Origin: Thermoanaerobaculia bacterium
Lineage (GTDB): Bacteria > Acidobacteriota > Thermoanaerobaculia > Multivoradales > JAIOJS01
Length of the DNA: 64,000 bases
Assembly: GCA_963846495.1 (NCBI GenBank)
Contig: CAWJWP010000016.1
Coordinates: 213,879-277,878, forward strand
Reading direction: 5' to 3'
Below are positions 32,545 to 58,910 of this stretch, piece after piece (position 1 is the first letter of the stretch; every line of letters starts with the position of its first letter). The notes beneath the pieces were generated by a model that had not been told where the DNA came from, did no database searches, and worked only from the letters and a program-made list of their open reading frames with translations. The position numbers and the translations under genes were made by a program.

Positions 32545-32636
32545 GTCGCGGCTGACCAAGCGACTCGTCGTTGCGAGGAGCGCAGCGACGAAGCAACCTC
32601 GATCTCCGCAGGGAGCGGAAGCCGCTACGGGGCAGT
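32545..32636. repeat. 92-bp direct repeat, copy 1 (identical to 33145..33236)
   Basis: Base-for-base identity over 92 bp, seen directly. It contains the 36-bp core GTCGTTGCGAGGAGCGCAGCGACGAAGCAACCTCGAT. It lies upstream of rnz. Confidence 0.9.
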
Positions 32637-32640
32637 AAAG

Positions 32641-32845
32641 GTGAAGAAGAAAAAGTAGAGAGGGAAGAAGAGGAAATAAAAAAAGAGAGGGAAAGAAAAA
32701 AGAGGGAAGAGGAGAGAGGAAAAGAGAGAAAAGAGGAAGAAGGGAGAGGAATGAGAGAAGAGAGAGAGAGAGAGGAAGGAGAGGAGAGAGAAGAAGGAGA
32801 CGAGAGAGAAGAGGAAGAGAAGGAAAAGGGGGAAGCTGGAGATGA
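32641..32845. repeat. ~205-bp almost pure A/G tract (polypurine on the + strand, polypyrimidine on the transcribed strand of rnz)
   Basis: GAAGAAGAAAAAG…AGAGAGAGAGAGAGGAAGGAGAGG… with only a handful of T or C. It stands out sharply from the surrounding GC-rich DNA. The next ~300 bp (to 33144) remain strongly purine-skewed with very few T. Confidence 0.9.
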
Positions 32846-33078
32846 TGCCGCGCAGCGACGCGGAACGCGACCAGCGGATGATGGGCAACAGACTGCCAGA
32901 AGAGCACGAGGGCGTTGCTCGTCCCACGCGCGAAGACCTCGAGGCGGACGACTGAAAACGAGACGACCGGGGGGACGACGACGAGCGCACCACCGAGGGA
33001 ATGCGCACCACGACGAATAGCCGAAGGGCACTGTATGACAGAAGTGCCACAGCGCGAAGACGGCGCCGCGCGCGAAGA

Positions 33079-34554
33079 CTACGAGGCGCCCAACCGAGAA
33101 GCGCCACACGGCGAGCCTCGACGTGAGCACGGGGGGGAGAGACTGTCGCGGCTGACCAAGCGACTCGTCGTTGCGAGGAGCGCAGCGACGAAGCAACCTC
33201 GATCTCCGCAGGGAGCGGAAGCCGCTACGGGGCAGTGGTGGAGTGTCGCCGCTTCGAGCGCCCGCTCCGCCTCGGTCGCCGGTCCGCGTGGCTCGCCGCG
33301 CGACACCACGACGGCCGCCGCGAGGTCGCCGGTGACGTTCAAGGTCGTGCGGCACATGTCGAGGAAGCGGTCGACGCCGAGGATCAAGCCGATGCCCTCG
33401 ACCGGCACGCCGACCATGCCGAGGATCATCGCCACCACCGGGATCGAGCCCGCCGGGATGCCGGCGGTGCCGATGCCGCCGAGGATGCAGATGACGAGCA
33501 CCAGCACCTGCTGCGCCAGCGTCAGGTCGATGCCGTAAAACTGCGCCAGGAAGAGCACCGTCACGCCCTCGAAGAGCGCGGTGCCGTTCTGGTTGGCGGT
33601 GGCGCCGATCGTGAGCACGAAGCGCGACACCTGCGGCGGCAGCTTGAGGTTCTTCTCCGCCACCTCGAGCGCCGTCGGCAGCGTGGCGTTCGACGACGCC
33701 GTCGAGAAGGCGGTCACCATCGCCTCCTGCACGCCGCGGAAGAAGAAGCGCGGGCTCATGCCGCCGAGGAACCTGACCGCCAGCGAGTAGACGACGAACT
33801 GGTGGATGGCGAGCGCCAGCACGACGACGCCGACGTAGCGCGCCAGCTGGAAGAGCACCTCCCAGCCGAGCTGCGCCGTCAGTGTGAAGAGCAGCGCCGC
33901 GACGCCGATGGGCGCGAACGAGATCACCAGCTGGATGAGCGTCATGGTGACGTCGTAGAGCCCTTCGATCGCGTCCTGGAAGCGCCGCGCCGCGTCGGTG
34001 CGGGTGAGGAGGAGGCCGATGCCGATCGCCAGCGAGAAGAACATCCACGCCAGGTACTCGCCGCCCGCCGCCGCCTTCACCGGGTTGTCGGGGACGATCT
34101 GCAGGAAGAGGTCGACGCCCGTCTTCGGAGCGCTGGCGGTGCTGGAGAAGGTCGCCGCGCGCTCCGCGGCGCCCTCTGAGACACGCGCCCGCGTCTCCGC
34201 CGACATGCCCTCGCCCGGCCGTATGAGGTTGACGAGCACGAGGCCGAGCAGCACGGCGATGCTCGACACCACGATCGTGTAGGCGAGCGTCTTCAGACCG
34301 ACGCGGCCGAGCCCGCGCACGTCGCCGAGCCCCGCCACGCCGAGCGCCAGTGCCGAGAAGATGAGCGGCAGCACCAGCATGAAGAGCAGCCGCAGGAAGA
34401 TCTGCCCCACCGGCTGGGAGACATACTTGACGAAGCCGTCGAGAGTGATGAAGCCAAAGAGCGTCCACCCGCGCGCGAAGAGGTAGGCGAGCACGCCGCC
34501 ACCGGCGCCGATAACGCCGCCGATCAACATGCGGGTATGGAGCGGGATGCGCAC
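33079..34554 (-). CDS. Dicarboxylate/amino acid:cation symporter (DAACS; GltP/DctA family)
   Basis: Typical DAACS TM and re-entrant loop sequence (…FSTASSNATLP…GIDLTLAQQ…IPAGSIPV…DRFLDMCRTTLNVTGD…). The C-terminal ~45 aa are read from the 92-bp repeat and are probably not native. An in-frame-shifted TAG exists inside the repeat. Confidence 0.8.
   Translation of the reverse strand: MRIPLHTRMLIGGVIGAGGGVLAYLFARGWTLFGFITLDGFVKYVSQPVGQIFLRLLFMLVLPLIFSALALGVAGLGDVRGLGRVGLKTLAYTIVVSSIAVLLGLVLVNLIRPGEGMSAETRARVSEGAAERAATFSSTASAPKTGVDLFLQIVPDNPVKAAAGGEYLAWMFFSLAIGIGLLLTRTDAARRFQDAIEGLYDVTMTLIQLVISFAPIGVAALLFTLTAQLGWEVLFQLARYVGVVVLALAIHQFVVYSLAVRFLGGMSPRFFFRGVQEAMVTAFSTASSNATLPTALEVAEKNLKLPPQVSRFVLTIGATANQNGTALFEGVTVLFLAQFYGIDLTLAQQVLVLVICILGGIGTAGIPAGSIPVVAMILGMVGVPVEGIGLILGVDRFLDMCRTTLNVTGDLAAAVVVSRGEPRGPATEAERALEAATLHHCPVAASAPCGDRGCFVAALLATTSRLVSRDSLSPPCSRRGSPCGASRLGAS
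33145..33236. repeat. 92-bp direct repeat, copy 2 (identical to 32545..32636)
   Basis: Exactly 600 bp downstream of copy 1. It overlaps and supplies the last ~30 codons of the GltP-like ORF. Confidence 0.9.
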
Positions 34555-34676
34555 CGCTGCGGAGTATGTCGAGGGGCGCTGCCGGTGACAAGCGCGGCGC
34601 CGTCAACGGTTCGCGAGCCGTGGCGACGCGGCTGTCATGCGGCGCGGCCACTGCGCCACGCATCGCTCCGCTTAGG

Positions 34677-35261
34677 ATGTGCGCCGTGTTGCCGGACCCG
34701 CGCTGCAAGATCGCCTTCATCGGCAGCCACGGCGTGGGCAAGACGACGCTCGCCTTCGGGCTGGCGTCGCGGCTCAAGGCGCGCGACGTCTCGCTCGAGG
34801 TGGTGCACGAGGTGGCGCGCCGCTGCCCGCTGCCGATCAACGAGGAGACGAGCGTCGCCGCGCAGTCGTGGATCCTCCACTCGCAAGTAGCCGAGGAGCT
34901 CGTCGCGGCGGCGCGCTATCCGGTCGTGCTCTGCGACCGCAGCGTGCTCGACAACTACGTCTACCTGCTGCTGTCCGCCGGCGAGCGCGAGCCCGAATCG
35001 TTACGCCGGCTGGTCGACGACTGGATGGCGACCTACCAGCTGCTCGTCCACGTGCCGATCGTCGGCCGCCTGCAGCCCGACGGCGTGCGCGCCGCCGATC
35101 CCGCCTTCCAGCGTCTCGTCGACGAGCGGCTCGACCGCGAGCTCGAGCGGCGCGGGCTCGTCCCGCTGCGGCTCGATGCCGACGCGCGCGAGGGTTGGGG
35201 CGAAGCCGTCGAAGCGGCGGCCTGGGACGTCGTGCGGCCGGCGCAGATGCCGCTGCTCTGA
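34677..35261 (+). CDS. P-loop AAA-type ATPase / predicted kinase
   Basis: Walker A motif IAFIGSHGVGKTTLAFGLA and Walker B-like VVLCDRSVLD. The start is ambiguous among ATG 34677, GTG 34684 and the upstream 34566. Confidence 0.55.
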   Translation: MCAVLPDPRCKIAFIGSHGVGKTTLAFGLASRLKARDVSLEVVHEVARRCPLPINEETSVAAQSWILHSQVAEELVAAARYPVVLCDRSVLDNYVYLLLSAGEREPESLRRLVDDWMATYQLLVHVPIVGRLQPDGVRAADPAFQRLVDERLDRELERRGLVPLRLDADAREGWGEAVEAAAWDVVRPAQMPLL

Positions 35262-35358
35262 CGCTGCGATAGCCTTCGCCCTTCCCCTCGTCGATCCGCC
35301 GCGTCTGCCGCTCCGTAGAGCGGCTGTCCACTCACTTACGGTCTCGCCAGGAGGAGCC

Positions 35359-36180
35359 ATGAGCCACCGCATCCCCCGTCTCGTCCTCGCCGCCGCCGCG
35401 GCCACCGTCGTCGCCCTCGCCGCCACCGCCTCGACCGCCTCGGCCGGCGCGCACATGGAGGCCAAGGCGCCGCAGATGTTCGTCATCCACACCGAGCACG
35501 CGGTGCCGTCGAAGGTCGCCGAGTTCGAAGCGACGACGAAGGAGTTCGTCGCTCTCGTGCAAGCCAACCGCTCCGCGATGCCGACCTTCGCCTTCACCGC
35601 CCTGCAGGGCGAGGACCTCTCCTACTCGTTCGTCACGCCGATCAAGAACCTCGCCGACGCCGACGTCATCTACGCCGGCTTCGAGGCGCTGGGGAAGGCC
35701 GCCGGCGAGCGCTTCGTCGAGCTCATGCGGCGAGCCGGCGCCACCTACACGAGCGTCGACGAGGCCGCCTTCGTCGAGGTGCCGGAGGCGTCGTACTGGC
35801 CGGCCGGCGCGGAGGTGACGCCGATGAACGCGGGCTATTACCAGCTCGACCTCTACCGCCCGATGCCGGGCATGGACATGGAGGCGGCGCAGGTCGCGGC
35901 CGGGTGGAAGCAGCTCTTCGAGAGCAAGAAGGTGCCCTACGGCTACAGCGTCTTCCGCTTGGTGCTGGGCAGCGACGGACCGCTGTGGGTGGTGAGCACG
36001 CCGGCCAAAGACCCCGCCAACCTGGCGGCGATCGCAGAGGGCGCGAGGAAGGCGATCGGCGAGGAGGCGTGGCGCGCGCAGCTCGCGAAGACGATGGCGA
36101 TCTCGCGCAGCTTCGAGACCAAGCGCTACTGGGTGCGGCGCGACCTCTCGCTGGCGCCTCCCGCAGCCGCCGGCAAGTGA
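35359..36180 (+). CDS. Secreted hypothetical protein
   Basis: ATG 35359 is preceded by the strong RBS AGGAGGA and followed by a signal peptide (MSHRIPRLVLAAAAATVVALAATASTASA). No confident family assignment. Confidence 0.5.
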   Translation: MSHRIPRLVLAAAAATVVALAATASTASAGAHMEAKAPQMFVIHTEHAVPSKVAEFEATTKEFVALVQANRSAMPTFAFTALQGEDLSYSFVTPIKNLADADVIYAGFEALGKAAGERFVELMRRAGATYTSVDEAAFVEVPEASYWPAGAEVTPMNAGYYQLDLYRPMPGMDMEAAQVAAGWKQLFESKKVPYGYSVFRLVLGSDGPLWVVSTPAKDPANLAAIAEGARKAIGEEAWRAQLAKTMAISRSFETKRYWVRRDLSLAPPAAAGK

Positions 36181-36292
36181 CGCACGCGACGGCACGGCGG
36201 CGGACTTTCGCGTAGGCTCTCGCCGACACCGCGCCGCGACTTCGGTTGCGGCGCGGTGCTTGCACGAGCGCCGACCCCGAACGCGAGCCGCC

Positions 36293-37883
36293 ATGCCGTC
36301 GACCGCCAAACGTAGAGCCGGGCTGCTCCTCCACCCCACCTCGCTGCCGGGACGCTTCGGCGTCGGCGACATCGGGCCGGGGGCGGAGGCTTTCGTCGCC
36401 TGGGTGGAGGCGGCGGGCATCAGCGTCTGGCAGGTGCTGCCGCTGCATCCGCCGGGGCAGGGGAACTCGCCATACACGGCGCTCTCGGCCTTCGCCGGCG
36501 ACCCGCTGCTCGTCTCGCCCGACCGGCTGGTCGAGGACGGGCTGCTGCCCGCCTCCGCAGTCGCCTCGCCGCCGTCGTTCGCCGCCGACCGCGTCGACTT
36601 CGCGGCGGCCGGCGCCTGGAAGGACGCGCTCCTGCGCGAGGCATGGGCGCGCTTCCGCCGCGCCGGCGAGCCGGCGCTGCGCGACCGCTTCCGCTCCTTC
36701 GCCGCCGACGCGCGGCACGCGGTGTGGCTCGGCGACTGGGAGCTCTACCGCGCGCTCAAGGACCGTCACGGCGGCGCGCCCTGGTACGCGTGGCCGGCGC
36801 CGCTGGTGCGCCGCGAACCGGAAGCGCTCGAGGAAGCGCGACGCGAGCTGCTCGTCGAGACGGCCTACCACCGCTTCGTGCAGTTCCTCTTCTTCCACCA
36901 GTGGTCGCGGCTGCGCGGCGCCGCGGCGCGCGCCGGCATCCGCCTGCTCGGCGACCTGCCGATCTACGTCGCGCACGACAGCGCCGACGTGTGGGCGCAC
37001 CAGGAGCTGTTCGACCTCGACGACCAGGGGCAGCCGCGCCACGTCGCCGGCGTGCCGCCCGACTACTTCAGCCCCACCGGCCAGCGTTGGGGCAACCCGC
37101 TCTACCGCTGGGACCGCATGGCCGCCGACGGCTACGCCTGGTGGATCGAGCGGCTGCGCGGCAGCCTCGAGCTCACCGACCTCGCGCGCATCGACCACTT
37201 CCGCGCCTTCGCCGCCTACTGGCGCGTGCCGGCGAGCGAGCCGACGGCGCTCAACGGCGAGTGGGTCGAGGGCCCCGGGCTGACGTTCTTCACCGCCCTG
37301 CGGCGCGGCCTCGGCGGCTTGCCGATCATCGCCGAGGACCTCGGCGTCATCACCGACGACGTCGAGGCGTTGCGCGACCGCGCCGGCCTGCCGGGCATGA
37401 AGGTGCTGCAGTTCGCCTTCGACGAGGAGGACAGCTCGCACCTGCCGCACCGCCATCCGCAGCGCTCGGTCGTCTACACCGGCACCCACGACAACGACAC
37501 CACCGTGGGCTGGTTCGCGAAGCTGAGCGTCGAGGCGCGGCAGCGCTTCGCCGACTACCTCGGCCACGACCGCGAGGGGCCGCACTGGCAGCTCATCCGC
37601 GCCGCCTTCACCTCGCCGAGCCTGCTGGCGATCGTGCCGATGCAGGACGTGCTCGGGCTCGGCACCGAGGCGCGCATGAACGTGCCCGGCCGCGCCGAGG
37701 GGAACTGGTCGTGGCGCGTGCCGCCGGGCCTGCCGCGCGGCGACGAGCCGGCGCGGCTTGCGGAAGCTGGTGGTCGTCAGCGGCCGGCTGCCGCGCGAGC
37801 AGCGGGCGGATGCGGAAGGCGCGGCCGACGCGCCCGCCGCGGCGGCGGCCGAGCGCGAGCACGCGCGCCCGCGCGGCGCCTGA
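36293..37883 (+). CDS. malQ: 4-alpha-glucanotransferase (amylomaltase, GH77), with a C-terminal frame change near 37750
   Basis: GH77 motifs (GLLLHPTSLPG…GIGDIGP-like, …LGDLPIYVAHDSADVW…, NVPGRAEGNWSWR). The last ~40 aa continue in another frame (…ARLRKLVVVSGRLPREQ…PRGA*), consistent with an extra G in CTTGCGG. Confidence 0.8.
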
Positions 37884-37980
37884 GCGGCGATCGCGGGTCG
37901 CATCGCTGCGTCACGCAGCCCGCGACGCGGTTGCTTGGGCACACAGGCGCGGGCGACCGGCGCCGACTTGATTCCGCCGC

Positions 37981-37998
37981 CCCCGCGAGGACGCGGGG
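37981..37998. terminator. GC hairpin CCCCGCG-agga-CGCGGGG downstream of malQ (no U-tract)
   Basis: Perfect 7-bp inverted repeat seen in the sequence, about 100 bp after the malQ stop. Confidence 0.4.
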
Positions 37999-38060
37999 TC
38001 GGCTCCACGACGTCGGGACTCGCCGTTGGCTCGCCCCTCTGGTTGCGACAGAATCGCGCC

Positions 38061-38456: not shown

Positions 38457-38484
38457 CGTCGCGCAGCGAAGCGAGGTATCCCTT

Positions 38485-39655: not shown

Positions 39656-39762
39656 GGCGGGATCTTAGACCAGCGTCAGCTCGATTTGTTAACCGCCATT
39701 CACCTATCGCTTGATTATGAATGGCCGTTAAGTTATCCTCCGACGGCAACAGGAGGTGAGCC

Positions 39763-41164: not shown

Positions 41165-41227
41165 CGGCTCTCCGGCGAGGCGAGATGCCGAGTATTCCCA
41201 CGGCTCTCGCCGCGCTCGGCTGTGGCT

Positions 41228-43795: not shown

Positions 43796-44100
43796 ATGTC
43801 CAACGCACCGGGGAATCGGGTCGACATCGTCGTCTGCCAGAAGCATGGCCTGCGCTACAACCGCGTCACCGATACCGGCTGCGCGATGTGCCGCCGCGAG
43901 GCGGCCGAGGCGGCCGGCGCACCGGCGAGCACGGGCGCGGTGCGCGTGGCAACCGCCCGCAACGGCGCCGCGGTCCGTGCCGCCCGACCGCCGGCTCCGC
44001 CTCCCGCGGCTGCTCGTCCGGTAGTGCCGCCCGCACCGCGACCCGCGGCGGCTCCTGCGCCGCGGCCGAGCGCCGGCTGCGCCAGCACCACCCCGCGTCG
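43796..44100 (+). CDS. Zinc-ribbon motif protein A (CxKHGLRYNR-x5-GCxxCRRE) with Pro/Ala-rich tail; frame unclear after ~44030-44100
   Basis: Begins MSNAPGNRVDIVVCQKHGLRYNRVTDTGCAMCRREAAE. Beyond the PA-rich region the plausible reading moves to another frame and runs into gene B without a stop. It may be one protein or two tandem paralogs. Confidence 0.4.
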
Positions 44101-44288
44101 CCGCCGCAACGCCGCCACGAGCAACTCCGACGCTCCCGCCAGCACCGCCGGCCTCGGCGGCGCCGACTCCCGCACCATTCGCGCCGCCCGCGACCGAAGC
44201 TCTGCCGTCGCTGCTTCCCGACCTACCGCCGCTCCTTCCCGATCTGCCGCCCGAGCCCGAGGCGCTGACCGCCACCGGCTCGCGACGG

Positions 44289-44804
44289 ATGGACGTCGCG
44301 ACCTGCGAGAAGCACGGCCTGCGCTACAACCGCGCCGTCGAGAGCGGCTGCGTGCGCTGCCGGCGCGAGAGCGGCGTGGCGACGACGGCCACGGCCGGCA
44401 CGGGAGCCAGTCGGCTGGGCACCGCGGTGCGGCTCGACGCGCCCTCTTCCGTCGGCACCCAGCTGCTCATCGCCGTCTTGCTCATCGGCGGCACCGGCGG
44501 CCTCTGCTTCGCGGCGCACCAGGCGGTGCTCAACAGCTTCGCCGGCGGTCTCCTCATGCAGACGGGGAGCGCCGGGATGGACGTCGTCGACGATCCCGGC
44601 GAGGCCTACGACGCAGCCGCCGAGCCCGCCGCCTGGCCGCCGCCGCGGCCGACAGGGCCGCAGCCCACCGCGCCTCCCGGCATGAAGGGGCGCGGCCCGG
44701 CCGAGGAGCAGAAGCAGATCGAGGAGCTCTTCCGCCAGATGCAAGAGGACGAGGCGAAAGAGCGCGGCGAGCAGCCGCCGCCCGCGGAAGAGATCCCGCA
44801 GTAG
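44289..44804 (+). CDS. Zinc-ribbon motif protein B (CEKHGLRYNR-x5-GCxxCRRE), single TM, acidic C-terminal tail
   Basis: MDVATCEKHGLRYNRAVESGCVRCRRE…, then the TM segment TQLLIAVLLIGGTGGLCFAAHQAVL, then …EEQKQIEELFRQMQEDEAKERGEQPPPAEEIPQ*. The N-terminal motif is duplicated from gene A. Confidence 0.55.
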   Translation: MDVATCEKHGLRYNRAVESGCVRCRRESGVATTATAGTGASRLGTAVRLDAPSSVGTQLLIAVLLIGGTGGLCFAAHQAVLNSFAGGLLMQTGSAGMDVVDDPGEAYDAAAEPAAWPPPRPTGPQPTAPPGMKGRGPAEEQKQIEELFRQMQEDEAKERGEQPPPAEEIPQ

Positions 44805-50460: not shown

Positions 50461-50609
50461 GGGCCGCGGCGCTCACGCCGCCGCACGTCGCCTCACACGC
50501 CAGCCTCGCCGCCGGCTTACAGATGAAGGTCGTGCGATCCGTAATCGCTCGCGTAAACAGCGAGTAAGGCGCTCCTTCCTATCGTGCGCCGCATCAGGAG
50601 GGAGAACCC

Positions 50610-51251: not shown

Positions 51252-51285
51252 ACGACCGCCTTCTCAACCAACAGGAGCAAGAGCC

Positions 51286-52233: not shown

Positions 52234-52307
52234 CGTCCTCTTTCTCCAGCGCCGGCGTCCCGCTGCCCTGCGATCGGGACGCCGGCCTCTTCTCTCGCGG
52301 CCGTAAG

Positions 52308-53294
52308 ATGCGCAGCGTGAGCAGCGGCGCACCGTTCCGCATCGCCGCCGTGCAGACCGCGCCGGTGTTCCTCCGCCGCGAGGCGACGGTGGAGAAGGCG
52401 TGCGAGCGCATCCTCGCCGCCGCGCGCGAGGGCGCCCGTCTCGTGGTGCTGCCCGAGGCGTTCGTGCCCACCTACCCGTTCTGGGTGTGGCACCTACCGG
52501 CGGGCGAGACGCGCACGCTGCGCGCGCTCTACGCCGAGCTGCTCGACCAGGCGGTGACGATCCCCGGCCCCGCCGTCGACCGTCTGAGCGAGGCGGCGCG
52601 CGCGGCGGGTGCGGCGGTCGCCATCGGCGTCAACGAGCGCAACGTCGAGGCCTCGGGCACGAGCCTCTACAACACGCTGCTCCTCTTCGACGCCGAGGGG
52701 CGGTTGCGGGCGCGGCACCGCAAGCTCGTGCCCACCGCCGGCGAGCGGCTGGTGCACGCGCCCGGCGACGGCAGCACCCTCGCCGTGCACGACCTCGGCT
52801 TCGCGCGCGTGTCGGGCCTCGTCTGCTGGGAGAACTACATGCCGCTGGCGCGCTACGCGCTCTACGCCTGGGGCGCCGAGGTGCACGTGGCGCCGACGTG
52901 GGACCGCGGCGAGCCGTGGCTGTCGACGCTGCGGCACATCGCGAAGGAGGGGCGGGTCTACGTCGTCGGCAGCTGTTGCGCGGTGCGCCGCGCCGACGTG
53001 CCCGACGAGCAGCCGTGGAAGGAGCGCCTGCCCGCGGGTGAGTGGCTCAACCCCGGCGACAGCGCCATCGTCGATCCCGACGGCAAGCTCGTCGCAGGAC
53101 CGGCGCACGAGGTCGACACCATCCTCTACGCCGACGTCGACCCGCGTGCGATCACCGGGCCGCGATTCCAGCTCGACGTCGCCGGCCACTACGCGCGGCC
53201 CGACGTCTTCGAGCTGCGCGTGCGCCGGCGCGCGCGGCCGCTCGTCGAGGTGACGGTCGACGACGACGAAGCGGCGGCGCCGCTCGTCGATTGA
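52308..53294 (+). CDS. Nitrilase/cyanide hydratase family carbon-nitrogen hydrolase
   Basis: Glu-Lys-Cys triad contexts (VVLPEAF…RKLVPT…GLVCWENYMP). The start is taken at ATG 52308; the annotated ORF begins further upstream at 51900. Confidence 0.8.
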   Translation: MRSVSSGAPFRIAAVQTAPVFLRREATVEKACERILAAAREGARLVVLPEAFVPTYPFWVWHLPAGETRTLRALYAELLDQAVTIPGPAVDRLSEAARAAGAAVAIGVNERNVEASGTSLYNTLLLFDAEGRLRARHRKLVPTAGERLVHAPGDGSTLAVHDLGFARVSGLVCWENYMPLARYALYAWGAEVHVAPTWDRGEPWLSTLRHIAKEGRVYVVGSCCAVRRADVPDEQPWKERLPAGEWLNPGDSAIVDPDGKLVAGPAHEVDTILYADVDPRAITGPRFQLDVAGHYARPDVFELRVRRRARPLVEVTVDDDEAAAPLVD

Positions 53295-53313
53295 GCACCC
53301 GAGGCGCGCCGCG

Positions 53314-53390
53314 ATCGAGATCGCTTCGTCGCTACGCTCCTCGCGATGACGGTTGATACGTCATCGCGAGCGCAGCGAAGCGATCTCGAT
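53314..53390. repeat. Inverted pair of the 36-bp core repeat forming a ~31-37-bp-arm palindrome between convergent genes
   Basis: ATCGAGATCGCTTCGTCGCTACGCTCCTCGCGATGAC-ggttgatac-GTCATCGCGAGCGCAGCGAAGCGATCTCGAT. The right arm encodes the last residues of DoxX. It is related to the cores at 32567, 33167 and 58874. Confidence 0.8.
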
Positions 53391-53798
53391 GCCTGAGCCC
53401 GCTACGGCGCCGTACGGCGTCCGCGGAAGTCCGCGGTCGAGGCTGTACGGCCCCGTCCCGCGCGCCGCGATGTAGAGGAAGAGGAAGCAGTAGAGCACCG
53501 CGTTCTCGCCATGGTTGGCGACCGGGTTCCACCCCTCCGGCGCGTGAGCCTTGAAGTACGCCACCGCCATCTCGCCGCTGGCGATGAAGGCGGCGAAGTC
53601 GCCGAAGAAGCCGAGGGCGATCATCACCCCGCCGACGACCTCGATGATGGCGGCCGCCAGCATCAGCGTCGAGCCGGTCTTGGCCGGGCCGCCCAACAGG
53701 CCGAACTTGTCCGCTCCGTGCAACGCGAACACCAGCCCCGCCACCACGCGCAATACGAGGAAGATCGGCTCCGAGTACCGGTTCAACACGCGCATCAC
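53361..53798 (-). CDS. DoxX family membrane protein
   Basis: RBS GGGGGG. Four-TM DoxX-like sequence (…LRVVAGLVFALHGADKF…). Confidence 0.75.
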   Translation of the reverse strand: MMRVLNRYSEPIFLVLRVVAGLVFALHGADKFGLLGGPAKTGSTLMLAAAIIEVVGGVMIALGFFGDFAAFIASGEMAVAYFKAHAPEGWNPVANHGENAVLYCFLFLYIAARGTGPYSLDRGLPRTPYGAVAGSGIEIASLRSR

Positions 53799-53892
53799 AC
53801 CCCCCTTTCGCGGTTCGGTCGAGCCAGTCTAAGCACGAATCGAGCCCGGCGGGGCGGCGAGCGGGCCGGCTGATACATTGCCCCGGCCGCAC

Positions 53893-56757
53893 ATGGAACC
53901 CGAGCCCGCTCCCGGCGTCGGCGAGGCGACGAGTCCCGAGGCCACCCTGCTGGCCACCGTCGAGACGCTGCTCGCCGAGGTGCATCCGCGGCAGCGGCCG
54001 CCGCGCGTGGCGCTCGACAGCGCGCTCGAGAAGGACCTCGGCCTCGACAGCCTCGCCCGCGCCGAGCTGCTGCTGCGGCTGGAGACCGCTTTCGACGTGG
54101 CGCTGCCGGAGCGCGTGCTCGCCGAGGCGGAGACGCCGCGCGATCTGCTCGACGCGGTCGCGCGTGCGGCGCCGCGCGGCCAAGCGACGGCGGGGATGGC
54201 GGCGACGCGACCGGAGCTCGTAGACGTCGGCGGCGGCCGCGCCGTTACAGCGGCAGCCGAGTCGGCACCCGAGAGCGCACCGACCCTGCCCGCGGTCCTC
54301 GCCTGGCACGCGGAGCGTCACGCCGAGCGGCGCCACCTGCTCTTCCTCGAAGGGCAGCAAGGCACGACGCTGTCGTACGGCGAGCTGCAGCAGCGCGCCA
54401 CCACCGTTGCCGCCGCGCTTCTCGCCCGCGGGCTGGAGTCGCAGCAGACCGTGGCGCTCATGCTGCCCTCGGGCGTCGAGTACTTCGCCTCCTTCCTCGG
54501 CATCCTGCTCGCCGGCGGCGTGCCGGTGCCGCTCTACCCGCCGGCGAAGAAGAGCCAGCTCGAGGACCACCTGCGCCGCCAGGCCGGCATCCTGAAGAAC
54601 GCGCAGGTGCGGGTGCTGATCGCGGCGCCCGAGGTGCGCGCGCTGGCGCGCCTGCTCGCGCCGCTGGCGCCCGACCTGCGTTTCGTCACTACGCCCGGTG
54701 ACCTCGCCGCCGAAGGCGCGACGTTGCGTGCCGCGCTGCCGCGGGTGGCGGCGAGCGACGTGGCGTTCATCCAATACACCTCGGGCAGCACCGGCGATCC
54801 CAAGGGAGTCGTGCTCACGCACGCGAACCTGCTCGCCAACTTGCGCTCGGTGGGCAAGGTGATGCCGATCGGCGGCGACGACGTCGTCGTCTCCTGGCTG
54901 CCGCTCTACCACGACATGGGCTTGATCGGCGCCTGGATGGGCAGCCTCTACTTCGGCGTGCCGCTGGTGCTGATGTCGCCGCTCGCGTTCCTGGTGCGGC
55001 CCGCCGCCTGGCTGCGCGCCGTCTCCGAGCACCGCGGCACCATCTCGGCGGCGCCCAACTTCGCCTACGCGCTGTGTGCGCGCAAGGTCGCCGACGACGA
55101 CCTCGCCGGCCTCGACCTGTCGTCGTGGCGGGTGGCGATGAACGGCGCCGAGCCGGTGTCGCCCGAGGTCGTCGAGGCCTTCATCACCCGTTTCGAGCCG
55201 TACGGCTTCCGGCGCGAGTCGATGAAGCCGGTGTACGGCCTGGCGGAGAACTCGCTGGCGCTCGCCTTCACGCCGCCGGGCCGCGGCCCGAGCGTCGACG
55301 TCGTGCGCCGCCAGCGCCTGCAGCGCGACGGCCGCGCGCAGCCGGCGTCGCCTGACGAGCCGCAGCCGCTGCGCTTCGTCTCCGCCGGCCATCCCATCGC
55401 CGACCACGACCTGCGCATCGTCGACGATCACGACCGCGAGCTGCCCGAGCGGCACCAAGGCCGCGTGCAGTTCCGCGGCCCCTCGGCGACGAGCGGCTAC
55501 TTCCGCAATCCCGAGGCGACGGCGCGGCTGCTGCGGCCGGCCACCGATGGCCAAGGCGACTGGCTCGAGTCGGGCGACCTCGGCTACTTCGCCGACGGCG
55601 AGCTGTTCGTCACCGGCCGCAGCAAGGACATGATCATCCGCGCCGGCCGCAACCTCCACCCGCAGGAGCTCGAGGAGGCGGTGGGCGCGCTGCCCGGCGT
55701 GCGCAAGGGGTGCGTTGCCGTCTTCGCCACGACCGTCGCGGCGGAGGGCACCGAGCGACTGGTGGTGATGGCCGAGGCACGGCCGGAAGGTGAGACTGCG
55801 GCGACGGAGCTGCGGCAGAAGATCGGCGAGCTCGCCATCGAGCTCGTCGGCAGCGCGCCCGACGAAGTAGCGCTGGTGCGGCCGGGCACGGTGCCCAAGA
55901 CCTCGAGCGGCAAGATCCGCCGCAACGCCGCGCGCCAGCTCTTCGAGGAAGGCCGCCTCGACGCCGGCCGCGCCGCGCTCTGGTGGCAGCTCGTGCGGCT
56001 CGGGATGGCGGGCGCGGTGCCGCGCTTGGGGCGCGCGCTGCGGCGCAGCGGCGAGATCGCCTGGGGCCTGTGGGCGTGGACGCTCTTCGTGCTGCTGGCC
56101 CCGCCGTCGTGGCTCGCCGTCGTGCTGCTCCCCGGCGTGCAGCTGCGGCGGAGCATCGCGCGCGCGGCCGCGAGCTTGCTCGTGCGCGGCAGCGGCTGCC
56201 CAGTCGTCGTGCACGGCCTCGAACGGCTGCCCGCCACACCGTGCGTGCTCGTCTGCAACCACCAGAGCTACGTCGACGCCTTCCTCCTCACCGCGCTCCT
56301 GCCGCCGCGCTTCGCCTACGTCGTCAAGTCCGAGTTGCGCAACAACCCCTTCACGCGCCTGCCGCTCGCCCGCCTGCGCGCCCTCTTCGTCGAGCGCTTC
56401 GACGCCGAAAAAGGCATCGACGACGCCCGCCGCGGCACCGACAGCGTCGCCGCCGGCGACTCCCTCGTCGTCTTCGCCGAAGGCACCTTCCGCCGCGCCG
56501 CCGGCCTGCTGCCCTTCCGCCTCGGCGCCTTCGCCATGGCCGCACGCGCCGGGCTGCCCGTCGTGCCGATGGCGCTGCGCGGCAGCCGCTCGCTGCTACG
56601 CGACAAACAGTGGCTGCCGCACAGGAGCGCAGTCACGCTCACCATCAGCGAGCCCCTGACACCAAGCGGCACCGCCTTCGCCGACGCCGTCGCGCTACGC
56701 GACGACGCGCGAGCGTGGATGCTCGCCCACGTCGCAGAGCGCGACCTCGCGCACTGA
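53893..56757 (+). CDS. Tri-domain lipid-metabolism enzyme: acyl-carrier-protein-like domain, fatty-acyl-AMP ligase/acyl-CoA synthetase, and PlsC-type acyltransferase
   Basis: Phosphopantetheine-site-like DLGLDSLARAEL, AMP-binding motif YTSGSTGDPKGV, and acyltransferase HxxxxD motif (NHQSYVDAF). The start is ambiguous (TTG 53878 or ATG 53893). Confidence 0.75.
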   Translation: MEPEPAPGVGEATSPEATLLATVETLLAEVHPRQRPPRVALDSALEKDLGLDSLARAELLLRLETAFDVALPERVLAEAETPRDLLDAVARAAPRGQATAGMAATRPELVDVGGGRAVTAAAESAPESAPTLPAVLAWHAERHAERRHLLFLEGQQGTTLSYGELQQRATTVAAALLARGLESQQTVALMLPSGVEYFASFLGILLAGGVPVPLYPPAKKSQLEDHLRRQAGILKNAQVRVLIAAPEVRALARLLAPLAPDLRFVTTPGDLAAEGATLRAALPRVAASDVAFIQYTSGSTGDPKGVVLTHANLLANLRSVGKVMPIGGDDVVVSWLPLYHDMGLIGAWMGSLYFGVPLVLMSPLAFLVRPAAWLRAVSEHRGTISAAPNFAYALCARKVADDDLAGLDLSSWRVAMNGAEPVSPEVVEAFITRFEPYGFRRESMKPVYGLAENSLALAFTPPGRGPSVDVVRRQRLQRDGRAQPASPDEPQPLRFVSAGHPIADHDLRIVDDHDRELPERHQGRVQFRGPSATSGYFRNPEATARLLRPATDGQGDWLESGDLGYFADGELFVTGRSKDMIIRAGRNLHPQELEEAVGALPGVRKGCVAVFATTVAAEGTERLVVMAEARPEGETAATELRQKIGELAIELVGSAPDEVALVRPGTVPKTSSGKIRRNAARQLFEEGRLDAGRAALWWQLVRLGMAGAVPRLGRALRRSGEIAWGLWAWTLFVLLAPPSWLAVVLLPGVQLRRSIARAAASLLVRGSGCPVVVHGLERLPATPCVLVCNHQSYVDAFLLTALLPPRFAYVVKSELRNNPFTRLPLARLRALFVERFDAEKGIDDARRGTDSVAAGDSLVVFAEGTFRRAAGLLPFRLGAFAMAARAGLPVVPMALRGSRSLLRDKQWLPHRSAVTLTISEPLTPSGTAFADAVALRDDARAWMLAHVAERDLAH

Positions 56758-56811
56758 CGCGGGCGCCCGACGCGCGGCGCGTCGGCAGCGATCTTGCTGG
56801 CCTTGCGGCGC

Positions 56812-57030
56812 ATGGCGCGCTCTGCCGCACTCGCGACTTCTCTTCCCTGGTGGGCCACCGCCGGCGGTGAGTCGTGCCCGGTGTGCCTGCAGCGCTATCA
56901 CTACGAGCTCGAGTATCGCTGCGTCGATTGCGATCAGCCGCTTTGCCCGCACTGCGCGGTGCGCGTTTCGATCGAGGTCGTCGAGCTGCACTGTCCCGAC
57001 TGCGGCGCGTTGCCGCGCGAGGAGAGTTAG
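56812..57030 (+). CDS. Small double zinc-ribbon protein (4 x CxxC), translationally coupled to ku
   Basis: CPVC…CVDC…CPHC…CPDC within 73 aa. The stop TAG is 2 nt before the ku ATG, and a strong RBS for ku (GAGGAGAG) lies within its 3' end. Confidence 0.55.
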   Translation: MARSAALATSLPWWATAGGESCPVCLQRYHYELEYRCVDCDQPLCPHCAVRVSIEVVELHCPDCGALPREES

Positions 57031-57032
57031 CG

Positions 57033-57833
57033 ATGGCGGCGCGCGCGATGTGGAAGGGCGAGCTGGTGATCGGCAAGCAGCGGCTGCCGGTCAAGCTCTA
57101 CGCGGGGGTGCAGGAGAAGAAGGTGCGCTTCAACCTCCTCCACGACAAGGACGAGGCGCGCGTCGAGCAGCGGCTGATCGATCCCGAGACCGACGAGGCG
57201 GTGGCGAGCGCGGAGCTGCGCAAGGGCTACGAGGTCGAGCCCGGCACCTTCGTCGTGCTCGAGGACGAGGAGCTCGCCGAGCTCGAGCCCGAGGCGTCGC
57301 GCGACGTCGAGGTGACGCGCTTCGTGCCGGTGGGCGCCATCCATCACCAGTGGTACGAACGGCCGTACTGGCTCGGCCCCGACGGCGACGCCGACGGCTA
57401 CTTCGCGCTCGCCGCCGCGCTCGAAGCGAGCGAGCGCGAAGGCGTGGCCCGATGGGTGATGCGCAAGCGCCCTTACGTCGGCGCGCTGCGCCGCGAGGGC
57501 GACTACCTGATGCTGGTCGCCCTGCGCCACGCCGAAGAAGTCGTGCTGCCGACGGAGCTTCACGCTCCCGCGGGCCGCGCGCTCGACGCCAAGGAGAAGA
57601 AGCTCGCCGAGCAGCTCGTCGAGGCGCTCGCCGACCACTTCGACCCCGCCGCGTACCACGACACCTACCGCGAGCGCGTGCAGGAGCTCATCGAGGCGAA
57701 GGCGAAGGGGCGCAAGCTCAAGCTGGTGAAGCCGAAGGCGAAGAAGGCGCCGGAGAGCCTCGAGCGCGCGCTGCTGGCGAGCCTCGAGCGCAACTCGAAG
57801 GCGCCGGCGAAGAAGCAACGGAAGGCGAGCTGA
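57033..57833 (+). CDS. ku: Ku protein (NHEJ DNA-end-binding), paralog 1
   Basis: Ku core N-terminus MWKGELVIGKQRLPVKLYAG… and the typical basic C-terminal tail. Confidence 0.8.
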   Translation: MAARAMWKGELVIGKQRLPVKLYAGVQEKKVRFNLLHDKDEARVEQRLIDPETDEAVASAELRKGYEVEPGTFVVLEDEELAELEPEASRDVEVTRFVPVGAIHHQWYERPYWLGPDGDADGYFALAAALEASEREGVARWVMRKRPYVGALRREGDYLMLVALRHAEEVVLPTELHAPAGRALDAKEKKLAEQLVEALADHFDPAAYHDTYRERVQELIEAKAKGRKLKLVKPKAKKAPESLERALLASLERNSKAPAKKQRKAS

Positions 57834-57836
57834 GCC

Positions 57837-58835
57837 ATGGCCAACGGATCGCGCGGCCGTCATCGCCGCAAGCCTGCAGACGAAAATGGCAACGGAGCCG
57901 CGCGCCCGCGCTCCTTCTGGTCGGGCACCATCAGCTTCGGCCTGGTGAGCATCCCCGTCGACCTCTACCCCGCCAACCGCTCGGGCCGTCCCGGCCTGCG
58001 CCTGCTGGCGCCCAGCGGCCTGCCGGTGCAGCGGCGCTACGCCTCCTCGCGCGAGGACACGATCGTGCCGTCCGAGCGCCTCGTGCGCGGCTACGAGGTC
58101 AGGAAGGACGAGTACGTCGTCGTCACCGACGAGGAGCTGGCGGCGCTGGCGCCGGAGAAGAGCCGCGACATCGACCTGCAGCGCTTCGTGCCGGTCGAGG
58201 AGGTCGACCCGGTGCTCTTCCAGCGCGCCTACTTCCTCGCTCCCGGCGGCGAGTCGGCGAAGGCCTACCGCCTGCTCGCCGACGTCATGGAGAGCACCGG
58301 CCGCGCCGGCATCGCCACCTTCGTGATGCGCGACAAGGAGTACTTCGTCGCCATCCTCGCCGAGGGCGGCATCCTGCGCGCCGAGACCCTGCGCTTCGCC
58401 GACGAGGTGCGCTCCGCCGAGGACGTCGGCCTTCCCGCGCCGAAGAAGCCGAAGGCGGCGGCCGTGACGTCGCTGAAGCGCGCCATTGCGGCGCGCGCCA
58501 AGAAGGAGCTCGACCCCGACGAGCTCGCCGATCCGTGGAGCGCCAACCTCGAGAAGCTCGCGGAGAAGAAGCGCCGCCAGGGCGAGGACGTCGTCGAGGT
58601 GCCGGAGGAGGCCGAAGAGGAGCAGGCCGAGGTCATCGACCTGATGGAAGTGCTCAAGCGCAGCCTCGGCGCCAAGGCTACTAGCGGCGCGGGCCGGAGC
58701 GCGACGCGCGGCGCCACGAGCCGGCGGGCGCCGGCGAAGAAGGCGGCGCCGCGCTCGCGCAGCCGCCGCGGCTCGACGACCGCGAGCAAGGCGCGCGGCA
58801 AGCAGCGCAAGACGAAGAGCGGGCGCGGCGCGTAA
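57837..58835 (+). CDS. ku: Ku protein (NHEJ DNA-end-binding), paralog 2 with long Lys/Arg/Ala-rich tail
   Basis: FWSGTISFGLVSIPVDLYPA… matches the canonical Ku beta-barrel start. It begins 4 nt after paralog 1. Confidence 0.85.
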   Translation: MANGSRGRHRRKPADENGNGAARPRSFWSGTISFGLVSIPVDLYPANRSGRPGLRLLAPSGLPVQRRYASSREDTIVPSERLVRGYEVRKDEYVVVTDEELAALAPEKSRDIDLQRFVPVEEVDPVLFQRAYFLAPGGESAKAYRLLADVMESTGRAGIATFVMRDKEYFVAILAEGGILRAETLRFADEVRSAEDVGLPAPKKPKAAAVTSLKRAIAARAKKELDPDELADPWSANLEKLAEKKRRQGEDVVEVPEEAEEEQAEVIDLMEVLKRSLGAKATSGAGRSATRGATSRRAPAKKAAPRSRSRRGSTTASKARGKQRKTKSGRGA

Positions 58836-58873
58836 GCGTCGTCACTCGCTTCATCGCTGCTGCTCACGCAAGC

Positions 58874-58910
58874 GTCATTGCGAGGAGCGAAGCGACGAAG
58901 CAATCTCGAT
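58874..58910. repeat. Core repeat copy GTCATTGCGAGGAGCGAAGCGACGAAGCAATCTCGAT with a degenerate inverted partner to ~58960
   Basis: 32/36 identical to the cores at 32567 and 33167. It lies between convergent ku2 and the 59043..60149 gene. Confidence 0.75.

What the first reader, a model, noticed from the sequence alone, without database searches (positions are those of the whole stretch)
32567..58910. Dispersed REP-like repeat family with 36-bp core GTC(A/G)T(T/C)GCGAGGAGCG(A/C)AGCGACGAAGC(A/G)A(T/C)CTCGAT
The core occurs at 32567..32603 and 33167..33203 (inside the 92-bp repeats). It occurs as a near-perfect inverted pair at 53314..53390 between the convergent nitrilase and doxX genes, and again with a degenerate inverted partner at 58874..~58960 between convergent ku2 and the 59043 gene. 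When it overlaps gene ends it always contributes the same peptide (…SLRGA(Q/K)RRSNLD… or, on the other strand, …SRLLRR(F/C)APRND…) to unrelated ORFs (DoxX, DAACS, spurious ORFs). That is the behaviour of a selfish extragenic palindrome rather than of coding sequence. Location at 3' ends of convergent genes and the capacity to form long GC hairpins resemble REP/BIME elements, which can act as terminators, mRNA stabilisers and IS/RAYT targets. No matching family could be recalled from the sequence.
Basis: seen in the sequence. Interest (0 to 1): 0.6.

Follow-up and report, generated by a model that had tools for sequence, protein, structure and literature searches.

The report
Divergent Ssn-nuclease hairpin repeat family
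The repeated 37-base sequence is one arm of a hairpin repeat found almost unchanged in about a dozen bacterial phyla; it is of the known "CGTC-tagged REP / Ssn-related motif" kind, whose partner is a tiny GIY-YIG nuclease that cuts single-stranded DNA, not a RAYT transposase, but its sequence type escapes the published search motif.

Summary
The core is real. The window holds four full copies and one 31-nt short variant, with 0 expected by chance. They sit at only three independent loci, because two copies lie in one 600-nt duplication. All three loci are at the 3' ends of genes.

The repeat is not species-specific. Its exact 22-mer occurs in at least 120 genome loci from about a dozen phyla and in 79 viral contigs. 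Each arm has a 5' (C/T)GTC tag, an ATTGC/GCAAT stem with compensatory changes, a G/A-rich internal loop, a GCGNAGC apex and a short tail. Arms come in 26- and 32-nt forms, usually as inverted heterodimers.

These are the hallmarks of CGTC-tagged REPs (Di Nocera 2013) and of Ssn-related motifs (Chenal 2025). In 80 metagenomic loci, small GIY-YIG (Ssn-like) genes carry these arms within 150 bp in 52 cases, a 20-fold enrichment. The hairpin type follows the nuclease clade perfectly (62/62).

The published SRM search pattern does not match this type. The window has no ssn gene, no RAYT, and no terminator-like T-run at the repeats. The "degenerate partner" near 58,911-58,960 is not supported.

Verdict: a new sequence variant of a known kind, present here as a few probably passive copies. 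Moderate interest.

The parts
32545..32636 (+). 92-nt direct repeat, copy 1. It contains a small palindrome (GTCGC...GCGAC), the long arm, and a downstream AGCGG/CCGCT hairpin.
   Evidence: family D10, 100% identical copies 600 nt apart; fold -25 kcal/mol, z -2.7.
32566..32603 (+). Long (32-nt) arm with CGTC tag and CTCGAT tail: C GTC GTTGC GAGGAGCGCAGCGACGAA GCAAC CTCGAT. The first stem pair has changed from A-T to G-C in a compensated way.
   Evidence: nhmmer E 7e-11.
32637..33144 (.). 508-nt filler between the two 92-nt repeats. It is not part of the repeat family. 32637-32830 is 97% purine on the + strand.
   Evidence: composition; no other copy in the window or in the first 199 fetched loci.
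33145..33236 (+). 92-nt direct repeat, copy 2, overlapping the 3' tail of the symporter ORF (33079-34554, minus strand).
33166..33203 (+). Long arm, an identical duplicate of 32566-32603. It is not an independent insertion.
53314..53351 (-). Long (32-nt) arm with CGTC tag and ATCTCGAT tail. Its tail end lies 19 nt after the nitrilase stop codon (53292-53294).
   Evidence: E 3.5e-11.
53352..53358 (.). 7-nt spacer between the two inward-facing CGTC tags (9 nt between the GTC triplets).
53359..53390 (+). Short (26-nt) arm with CGTC tag and ATCTCGAT tail. Read on the minus strand it supplies the last residues (EIASLRSR) and the TGA stop of the DoxX ORF.
   Evidence: short-arm HMM E 3e-8.
58873..58910 (+). 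Solitary long arm with CGTC tag and ATCTCGAT tail. It lies 38 nt after the ku2 stop (58833-58835), in the convergent gap before the gene that ends at 59043.
   Evidence: E 4.6e-14.

Best explanation
Each copy is one arm of a pan-bacterial tagged hairpin repeat. This is a divergent sequence type of the CGTC-tagged REP superfamily, equivalent to the Ssn-related motifs (SRM).

Anatomy, shown here:
- An unpaired 5' (C/T)GTC tag.
- A 5-bp stem, ATTGC/GCAAT.
- A purine-rich internal loop (GA / GAA).
- An apical GCGNAGC mini-hairpin.
- A 2-3-nt tail.
- The 32-nt form adds one G-C pair plus GA/GA on each side of the apex.
- Arms normally occur as inverted 32+26 heterodimers, 10-40 nt apart.

Partner, shown here for the family but not for this window: genes for GIY-YIG nucleases of about 95-100 aa sit inside the dimer loop or between dimers. 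The nuclease clade matches the hairpin type.

Mechanism, taken from published SsnA biochemistry and inferred for this type: when the DNA is single-stranded (replication, transformation, conjugation) the tagged strand folds. The cognate Ssn nuclease then binds the hairpin plus tag and nicks a few nucleotides 5' of the tag, on that strand only. It does not act on dsDNA or RNA. The repeats are kept and spread as non-autonomous partners of the IS-like repeat-ssn-repeat cassette. The copying step itself is unknown.

In this window, which is probably from a Thermoanaerobaculia genome, there are three loci at gene 3' ends and no ssn gene. They are best read as passive copies. Their visible effects are altered ORF tails (DoxX +18 aa) and one strong cruciform-capable palindrome between the convergent nitrilase and doxX genes.
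For: Reality and spread:
- 0 matches expected by chance in the window.

Tag, stem and tail:
- G, T and C of the tag are present in 129, 127 and 127 of 131 instances.
- 10 of 12 changes at the first flanking pair are compensated.
- 158 distinct short arms and 207 distinct long arms show 15 and 32 compensatory cells at 4 of 7 and 5 of 8 pairs. This includes the long-arm-specific G-C pair. Slid controls collapse.
- Non-canonical arm centres are themselves hairpins: a stem of at least 4 bp in 42% against 10% of shuffles.

Dimers:
- 105 of 111 convergent pairs have a gap under 45 nt.
- Long+short pairs number 57; long+long pairs number 4.

Nuclease link:
- An ssn-like gene sits inside the dimer loop in L210 (intact) and L086 (decayed).
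- 52 of 80 metagenomic GIY-YIG loci have arms within 150 bp, 38 on both sides. Density is 6.1 per kb near the gene and 0.31 per kb further away.
- 53 loci carry this type only, 16 carry the published SRM type only, and none carries both.
- Hairpin type matches protein clade in 62 of 62 nearest neighbours; 0 of 2000 permutations reach this.
- This type's nuclease is 54% identical to one flanked by a canonical NTS. Both match PF01541.

Literature:
- CGTC REP features, and the lack of a known transposase for them (PMC3733652).
- Ssn is an ssDNA-specific, strand-specific nuclease, and its genes are flanked by SRMs (PMC11893778).

Window context.
Against: - There is no ssn gene in the window: tblastn and an HMM search at E<=10 both find none. 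Whether this genome has the enzyme is unknown.
- The published SRM degenerate pattern matches neither these arms nor anything else in the window.
- The arm has a 5-bp stem plus internal loop, not the 8-9-bp stem and 4-5-nt loop of the four described CGTC families.
- With standard nearest-neighbour DNA parameters, single arms fold no better than shuffles, z +1.5 to -0.35. Support for the intra-arm fold rests on covariation.
- No enzyme of this clade has been tested on this hairpin.
- There are only 5 arms in 64 kb, and the one dimer here has the rarer tag-inward orientation.
- The strand bias of wobble pairs is weak: G.T 50 against A.C 32.
Confidence: 0.8

Rival explanations
1. It is a classical REP/REPIN mobilised by a RAYT (an IS200-like Y1 transposase).
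For: The elements are inverted doublets of short imperfect hairpins with two length classes, as in E. coli BIMEs. They are intergenic and lie at 3' ends.
Against: - The 5' tag is CGTC, not GTAG.
- tblastn with IS200 TnpA and RAYT sequences written from memory found nothing in the window or in the first 199 loci.
- Di Nocera et al. found no tyrosine transposase flanked by CGTC repeats.
- The gene that is flanked by these arms is a GIY-YIG nuclease.
Confidence: 0.04
2. Its primary role is at the RNA level, as a transcription terminator or a 3' mRNA-stabilising hairpin selected by the host.
For: - All three window loci lie just downstream of genes. One lies between convergent genes and can form a hairpin of about -36 kcal/mol.
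- Many copies elsewhere start within about 10-20 nt of a stop codon.
Against: - No T-run follows the hairpins, and no terminator-like site was called at the repeats.
- No Rfam family matches.
- The arm at 32566 is antisense to both neighbouring genes.
- Host RNA function does not explain near-identical sequence across phyla, or the co-segregation with a nuclease clade.
- SsnA does not bind RNA.

An RNA role may still be a side effect.
Confidence: 0.1
3. The copies are orphan relics. They belong to the Ssn-type family by descent, but this genome no longer has, or never had, the nuclease. They are decaying fossils with no current activity.
For: - The density is low: 5 arms in 64 kb.
- Two of the three loci are solitary arms without partners.
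- There is no ssn gene in the window.
- In pattern-selected loci, about 500 arms (289 in genome loci, 202 in viral contigs) accompany a single ssn-like gene.
Against: - All five arms keep an intact CGTC tag and share the lineage-specific CTCGAT tail.
- The stem changes in them are compensated.
- Related Thermoanaerobaculia MAGs carry the same tag-inward heterodimer.

Both points argue for maintenance or recent spread in the lineage.
Confidence: 0.3
4. It is a chance similarity or a purely local duplication.
For: Two of the four full copies are indeed one local 600-nt duplication.
Against: - 0 of 100 shuffles give any match.
- Three independent loci lie 20 kb and 5.5 kb apart.
- The same sequence occurs in hundreds of unrelated contigs.
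Confidence: 0.01

Closest known systems
Ssn-related motifs (SRM/NTS) with SsnA GIY-YIG ssDNA nucleases (Chenal et al., Nat Commun 2025, PMC11893778)
   Same: - An oriented hairpin repeat with a conserved CGTC(AT) 5' tag.
- Many dispersed intergenic copies.
- Copies flank single-domain GIY-YIG genes of about 94-100 aa on one or both sides. I found 65% near and 48% on both sides; the paper reports 71% and 42%.
- The repeat-gene-repeat layout is IS-like.
- Nuclease and hairpin co-vary.
   Different: - The published degenerate SRM pattern does not match this sequence.
- The stem is imperfect, with G/A-rich internal loops and a GNA-type apex.
- There are two fixed length classes, paired as heterodimers.
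- The cognate nucleases form their own clade and have not been tested biochemically.
- No ssn gene lies in the window.
CGTC-tagged REP superfamily, families CGTC-1 to -4, including Rickettsia RPE-like and Neisseria dRS3/NTS units (Di Nocera et al., BMC Genomics 2013, PMC3733652)
   Same: - An unpaired CGTC/TGTC tag.
- A-T and T-A as the first two stem pairs.
- A short C-rich tail (CCA-like).
- Predominantly inverted dimers, often heterodimers.
- Intergenic position downstream of genes, with occasional in-frame intragenic copies.
   Different: - The described families have perfect 8-9-bp stems and 4-5-nt loops.
- They encode other peptides (VIPAKAGI, DGRVKPGHD...), and none is this sequence.
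- The paper found them in 5 phyla and stated that no dedicated enzyme was known.
REP / REPIN / BIME elements with RAYT transposases
   Same: - Short imperfect palindromes recognised as ssDNA hairpins with a conserved unpaired 5' tetranucleotide.
- Inverted doublets made of two length variants.
- A single-copy associated gene flanked by the repeats.
   Different: - The tag is GTAG rather than CGTC.
- The enzyme is a HUH/Y1 transposase rather than a GIY-YIG nuclease.
- REP sequences are lineage-specific, whereas this arm is nearly invariant across phyla.
d(GCGNAGC) GNA-triloop DNA mini-hairpins and tandem sheared G.A pairs (from my own knowledge of the Hirao/Yoshizawa and Chou/Reid work; not checked here)
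   Same: - The arm apex is exactly GCGNAGC, with N free (A 62, C 33, T 17, G 13).
- The internal loops have the Y-GA-R context.
   Different: This is a structural motif, not a genetic element. Its relevance here is an inference, and the standard folding parameters I used do not model it.

Membership tests
CGTC-tagged REP superfamily (PMC3733652) | Unpaired terminal CGTC (or TGTC/CCTC) tag at one end of the hairpin | tested here: met
   All 5 window arms have CGTC. Across 131 instances the positions are C/T 89/35, G 129, T 127, C 127.
CGTC-tagged REP superfamily (PMC3733652) | Complementary A-T residues in the first and second stem positions | tested here: met
   A-T in 120 of 131 and T-A in 122 of 131. 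Window arms have AT..AT in 3 of 5. The duplicated arm has G-C at the first position, compensated.
CGTC-tagged REP superfamily (PMC3733652) | Stem of 8-9 bp closing a 4-5-nt loop | tested here: not met
   The arm has a 5-bp outer stem, a GA/GAA internal loop and a 2-bp GCGNAGC apex. The long form has one extra G-C pair.
CGTC-tagged REP superfamily (PMC3733652) | Short unpaired 3' tail (consensus CCA) | tested here: inconclusive
   In the loci the tail positions are C 128, C/T 83/45, A/C 71/47 of 131. The window arms have CTC(GAT) instead.
CGTC-tagged REP superfamily (PMC3733652) | Mostly inverted dimers, often heterodimers, intergenic and downstream of genes | tested here: met
   - 105 of 111 convergent pairs have a gap under 45 nt.
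- 57 are long+short and 4 are long+long.
- The window loci are all at gene 3' ends.
- The one window dimer has the rarer tag-inward orientation.
Ssn-related motif / Ssn system (PMC11893778) | Matches the published SRM search sequence HGTCWYN(0-2)YYVSBRHN(0-5)WNVSBRGN(0-2)RNCYNB | tested here: not met
   The canonical NTS matches. The consensus short and long arms and all window arms do not, and the window has zero matches.
Ssn-related motif / Ssn system (PMC11893778) | The repeats flank genes of the single-domain GIY-YIG Ssn family | tested here: met
   This holds for the repeat family:
- 52 of 80 loci have arms within 150 bp and 38 of 80 on both sides, a 20-fold enrichment.
- The gene sits in the dimer loop in L210 and L086.
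- The proteins are 54% identical to an NTS-flanked homolog and match PF01541.

It is not seen in the window itself, which has no ssn gene. Assignment to cd10448 could not be checked.
Ssn-related motif / Ssn system (PMC11893778) | Hairpin type co-varies with its nuclease (cognate pairs) | tested here: met
   62 of 62 nearest-neighbour proteins share the hairpin class, 0 of 2000 permutations reach this, and no locus carries both types.
Ssn-related motif / Ssn system (PMC11893778) | Bound and cut as ssDNA only, 5' of the tag, on the tagged strand | not testable with these tools
   This needs purified enzyme and oligonucleotides. The only indirect hint is a weak excess of G.T over A.C mismatches on the tagged strand, 50 against 32.
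Ssn-related motif / Ssn system (PMC11893778) | Genome-wide enrichment (tens to hundreds of copies) together with an ssn gene in the same genome | not testable with these tools
   Only 64 kb of this genome is available.
REP/REPIN-RAYT | GTAG 5' tag and a Y1 (RAYT) transposase gene flanked by the repeats | tested here: not met
   The tag is CGTC. tblastn found no hit in the window (E<=10) or in the first 199 loci (E<=1e-3), using query sequences recalled from memory. The literature agrees.
Intrinsic (Rho-independent) terminator | A G+C-rich hairpin followed directly by a T-run | tested here: not met
   No terminator-like site was called at 53314-53390 or 58873-58910.
Any Rfam RNA family | Covariance-model match at gathering score | tested here: not met
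   There are 0 matches in the window. A lenient scan of the dimer gives only generic hairpin (miRNA-like) matches far below threshold.

The most novel reading that the evidence does not exclude
This GCGAG...GAAGC hairpin may be an undescribed specificity class of the Ssn system, and possibly one of the most widespread. Its features are G.A-built internal loops, fixed 26- and 32-nt forms paired as heterodimers, and a nuclease clade of its own. If so, counts based on the published motif miss it. Three observations would then mark it as an active unit in which a GIY-YIG nuclease drives spread or site-specific rearrangement:
- ssn genes lying exactly in the dimer loop.
- The 18-nt spacer found in both orientations at one orthologous site.
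- 26-to-32-nt arm conversion at that same site, in strains with identical nuclease.
Probability: 0.35. Interest if true: 0.6.

Novelty: new variant of a known kind. Interest (0 to 1): 0.4.

Why it matters
For this genome it matters little. There are a few small hairpin repeats at gene ends. They lengthen ORF tails, seed spurious ORFs and create one strong palindrome.

More broadly:
1. It names the partner enzyme for a sequence that litters bacterial genomes across phyla and produces recurrent junk peptides (for example ...SLRGAKRRSNL..., ...LLRRFAPRND..., ...EIASLRSR*) in automatic annotation.
2. It shows that the published SRM pattern misses a large hairpin class, so Ssn-repeat censuses are underestimates.
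3. A distinct nuclease clade with a distinct, structurally unusual ssDNA target would be a new specificity for the proposed ssDNA-cutting toolbox.
4. Near-identity of a 30-nt non-coding element across phyla, tied to a 100-aa protein, is a clean system for studying protein-DNA co-evolution and horizontal spread.

Tried and rejected
- **Rfam.** A scan at gathering thresholds over the whole window, and a lenient scan of the dimer, gave nothing meaningful.
- **Literature by sequence.** Full-text searches for the DNA sequence and six encoded peptides gave no relevant paper.
- **Master gene between distant arms.** The genes found there are ordinary: a HAD hydrolase, a GMC oxidoreductase, a dienelactone hydrolase and a HEPN/NTase.
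- **GIY-YIG in pattern-selected loci.** Only 1 gene was found among about 500 arms. I nearly dropped the link. It became clear only when I started from the gene side.
- **RAYT/IS200 by tblastn.** Nothing was found. The queries were written from memory, so this negative is soft.
- **Identifying the source genome.** The exact Ku2 protein is not on record. DoxX homologs point to Thermoanaerobaculia only at 77% identity.
- **Characterising the nuclease.** PDB by sequence and NCBIfam gave no useful hit.
- **Single-arm folding.** Nearest-neighbour DNA parameters give no signal.
- **The 'degenerate partner' at 58911-58960.** Rejected.
- **Plasmid collection.** Matches exist, but nothing is annotated under them.
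- **Supplements of the Ssn paper.** They are not held, so I could not check whether the authors' 29-genome set already contains this hairpin type.

Full report
**1. Observation**

The degenerate 37-mer matches exactly four places: 32567-32603(+), 33167-33203(+), 53314-53350(-) and 58874-58910(+). None is expected in 100 dinucleotide-preserving shuffles. The 22-nt centre GCGAGGAGCGNAGCGACGAAGC gives the same four.

The first two copies lie in a perfect 92-nt direct repeat, 32545-32636 and 33145-33236, spaced 600 nt apart. The window therefore holds three independent loci, not four.

At 53314-53390 the minus-strand copy faces a plus-strand arm (53360-53390) that is 6 nt shorter. It lacks GAG and CGA. 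Together they fold at -36 to -37 kcal/mol as ssDNA, z about -6 to -7.

The proposed degenerate partner after 58910 is not supported by profile search or by folding. Profile HMMs of the arm find no further copies in the 64 kb.

**2. Context in the window**

| Arm locus | Neighbouring genes |
|---|---|
| 32566 / 33166 | Between the 3' end of an SDF-family symporter (33079-34554, minus; Pfam domain ends at residue 419 of 491) and an RNase Z-like gene (31516-32493, minus) |
| 53314-53390 dimer | Between convergent nitrilase (stop 53292-53294) and DoxX |
| 58873 | 38 nt after the second of two tandem ku genes, facing the gene that ends at 59043 |

DoxX homologs of 88-95% identity end about 18 residues earlier than the window ORF. 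The repeat therefore supplies the last residues and the stop codon.

No T-run follows any of the hairpins. No Rfam family matches.

The window contains no Ssn-like GIY-YIG gene. It also contains no Y1 transposase detectable with remembered query sequences.

The nearest named DoxX relatives are Thermoanaerobaculia. Three Thermoanaerobaculia MAG loci carry the same ...GATCTCGA(T/C)-tailed arms at similar G+C. Two of them have the same tag-inward long/short dimer.

**3. The repeat is not species-specific**

The exact 22-mer occurs in at least 120 stretches of the one-genome-per-species collection.

By record title the hosts include:
- Alpha-, Beta- and Gammaproteobacteria, with many Bradyrhizobium and sphingomonads
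- Chloroflexota, Bacteroidota, Verrucomicrobiota, Planctomycetota and Acidobacteriota
- Armatimonadota, Atribacterota, Omnitrophota, Spirochaetota and Bacillota
- Marinimicrobia and deltaproteobacterial lineages

It also occurs in 79 viral contigs. One hit, Collinsella L050, lacks the flanking arm sequence and is probably a chance or coding match.

**4. Anatomy of the family**

I anchored on the fixed 22-mer so that the flanks are an unbiased sample.
- The arm begins with (C/T)GTC. G, T and C are present in 129, 127 and 127 of 131 instances.
- ATT then pairs with AAT at the far end.
- Of 12 changes at the innermost flanking pair, 10 are compensated.
- The arm centre is CGNAGC (26-nt arm), GAGCGNAGCGAC (32-nt arm), or a different small hairpin.
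- Those non-canonical centres have a stem of at least 4 bp in 42% of cases, against 10% of shuffles.

I tested the fold ATTGC/GCAAT + GA/GAA internal loop + GC(GNA)GC apex, with one extra G-C pair in the long form.
- Compensatory changes appear at 4 of 7 pairs in 158 distinct short arms.
- They appear at 5 of 8 pairs in 207 distinct long arms, including the long-specific pair.
- Slid controls collapse.

The apex GCGNAGC and the Y-GA-R loops correspond, from my own knowledge, to unusually stable ssDNA motifs. The standard energy model does not capture these. It shows no special stability for single arms.

Arms normally form inverted dimers with the tags outermost and 10-40 nt between them: 105 of 111 convergent pairs. 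They are mostly long+short, 57 against 4 long+long. The window's dimer has the rarer tag-inward orientation.

**5. The partner gene**

In locus L086 the dimer loop holds a decayed GIY-YIG gene. At the orthologous site in Sphingopyxis kveilinensis the gene is intact and sits exactly between the two arms. Other homologs are flanked within about 60 nt by arms or whole dimers, with no arms elsewhere in those loci.

A metagenome scan with an alignment of these proteins returned 80 loci at 49-66% identity.
- 52 have arms within 150 bp, and 38 have them on both sides.
- Arm density is 6.1 per kb near the gene and 0.31 per kb further away.
- Many of the 28 loci without these arms are flanked by other GTCAT...ATCC hairpins.

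Using a 170-bp limit and the published SRM pattern, 53 loci carry this type only, 16 the published type only, none both, and 11 neither. The hairpin type splits the proteins into two clean clades: 62 of 62 nearest neighbours agree, and 0 of 2000 permutations reach this. A protein of this type is 54% identical to one flanked by a canonical NTS. Both are single PF01541 domains.

**6. What is already known**

Di Nocera et al. 2013 (PMC3733652) defined CGTC-tagged REPs. Their features are a CGTC/TGTC tag, A-T first stem pairs, a CCA-like tail, mostly inverted dimers that are often heterodimers, occurrence in five phyla, and no associated transposase. The peptides they list for their four families are not those of this sequence.

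Chenal et al. 2025 (PMC11893778) showed the following:
- The Neisseria NTS, CGTCATTCCCGCGMAVGCGGGAATCYRG, and related SRM hairpins flank ssnA. This is a 94-aa GIY-YIG gene of the cd10448 family.
- 71% of homologs have an SRM nearby, and 42% have one on both sides.
- SsnA binds the hairpin only as ssDNA and cuts upstream of it on that strand.
- SsnA ignores dsDNA, RNA and the reverse strand.
- In Neisseria it limits transformation by NTS-bearing DNA.
- They noted the IS-like NTS-ssnA-NTS layout and expected many co-evolving pairs.

Their degenerate SRM pattern matches the NTS but not the present arms, and nothing in this window. I found no later paper on the family. I could not read their supplementary tables.

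**7. Interpretation**

The finding is a genuine dispersed repeat of a known kind: a tagged ssDNA hairpin partnered with a small GIY-YIG nuclease. It is present in a sequence and structure variant that neither key paper describes, as far as their text shows.

- Shown here: the anatomy, the distribution, the gene association and the clade-hairpin match.
- Taken from the literature: what Ssn enzymes do.
- Inferred: that this clade cuts this hairpin, that the window's genome encodes such an enzyme, and how copies spread.

In the window the copies look passive. The RAYT and terminator readings are not supported.

**8. Loose ends**

The 508-nt filler between the two 92-nt repeats is a compositional outlier. 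Positions 32637-32830 are 97% purine in a 72% G+C window, and there is no other copy anywhere I looked. The neighbouring RNase Z-like gene appears frameshifted, so an assembly artefact is possible.

At the P0050 locus, strains with an identical nuclease differ in two ways. The 18-nt spacer between two tag-inward arms lies in either orientation. One arm is either 26 or 32 nt. This suggests recent recombination at these elements.

Noticed in passing
window 32637-33144 (between the 92-nt repeats 32545-32636 and 33145-33236): The 508-nt filler is a compositional outlier. 32637-32830 is 97% purine on the + strand (A 55%, G 43%, C 0.5%). 32831-33144 has only 7% T. The window overall is 72% G+C. No other copy exists in the window or in the first 199 fetched loci. 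It is either a real insertion/duplication or a long-read assembly artefact.
   Followed up: partly
window 31516-32493 (minus strand): The RNase Z-like (metallo-beta-lactamase) gene appears frameshifted. Two overlapping ORFs, 31516-32493 and 31536-31898, carry the N- and C-terminal halves. This is a pseudogene or an indel error.
   Followed up: no
window 56874-57833 and 57837-58835: Two Ku-domain genes lie in tandem, separated by 3 nt, immediately upstream of the solitary arm.
   Followed up: no
window 18669-19114 and 19655-19815: Two periodic repeats sit side by side. One has a 99-102-nt period (AGCAGCTCGGCGCGGTCGTAGTCGGAGCT...). The other is a 9-nt periodic G-rich run (GGCGGNGNN). They probably encode repeat domains or a Gly-rich tract of one gene.
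   Followed up: no
window 43817-43956 and 44286-44425: A 140-nt segment is repeated at 70% identity, 469 nt apart. Its sequence (...GGCTGCG..TGCCGCCGC) suggests a duplicated Cys-containing domain.
   Followed up: no
L200-L209, about 10-90 nt downstream of the ssn-like gene (locus coordinates about 1811-1890): At one orthologous site, in strains whose nuclease protein is 100% identical, two things vary. The 18-nt spacer between two tag-inward arms occurs in both orientations: GGAGTTTCATAGCGCACC, and its near reverse complement GGTGCGTTACGAAACTCC. The plus-strand arm is either 26 or 32 nt. This points to recent inversion and arm conversion.
   Followed up: partly
L086 1707-2091 versus L210 1462-1845: The same site downstream of ychF holds an intact ssn-like gene inside the dimer loop in Sphingopyxis kveilinensis. 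In another Sphingopyxis MAG it holds a copy with a frameshift and a stop codon. The nuclease gene therefore decays while its flanking arms persist.
   Followed up: partly
L121-L199 (IMG/VR contigs): 79 viral or proviral contigs carry the exact 22-mer, some with 3-4 copies (L123, L181). None encodes a detectable ssn-like gene. I did not check whether these are true phage sequences or host flanks.
   Followed up: partly
L001 about 3760-3830, L004 about 2509-2569 and other loci: Some arms contain another arm start (GTCATTGCGAG...) inside their centre, or sit directly next to truncated arms. This suggests nested insertion into existing arms.
   Followed up: no
L050 (Collinsella MAG) 5577-5598: The exact 22-mer occurs here without the GTCATT/AATC flanks. 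It is a likely chance or coding match, so a few 22-mer hits are not elements.
   Followed up: no
L231, L243, L241, L249, L260, L247, L262, L271 and other loci: ssn-like genes that lack this arm type are flanked by other GTCAT-stem-loop-ATCC hairpins. Examples are GTCATTCCCGCGAAAGCGGGAATCC, GTCATGCCGGACTTGATCCGGCATCC and GTCATTCCAGCGAAAGCTGGAATCC. A few (L254, L263, L283) match neither detector, so further hairpin classes exist.
   Followed up: partly
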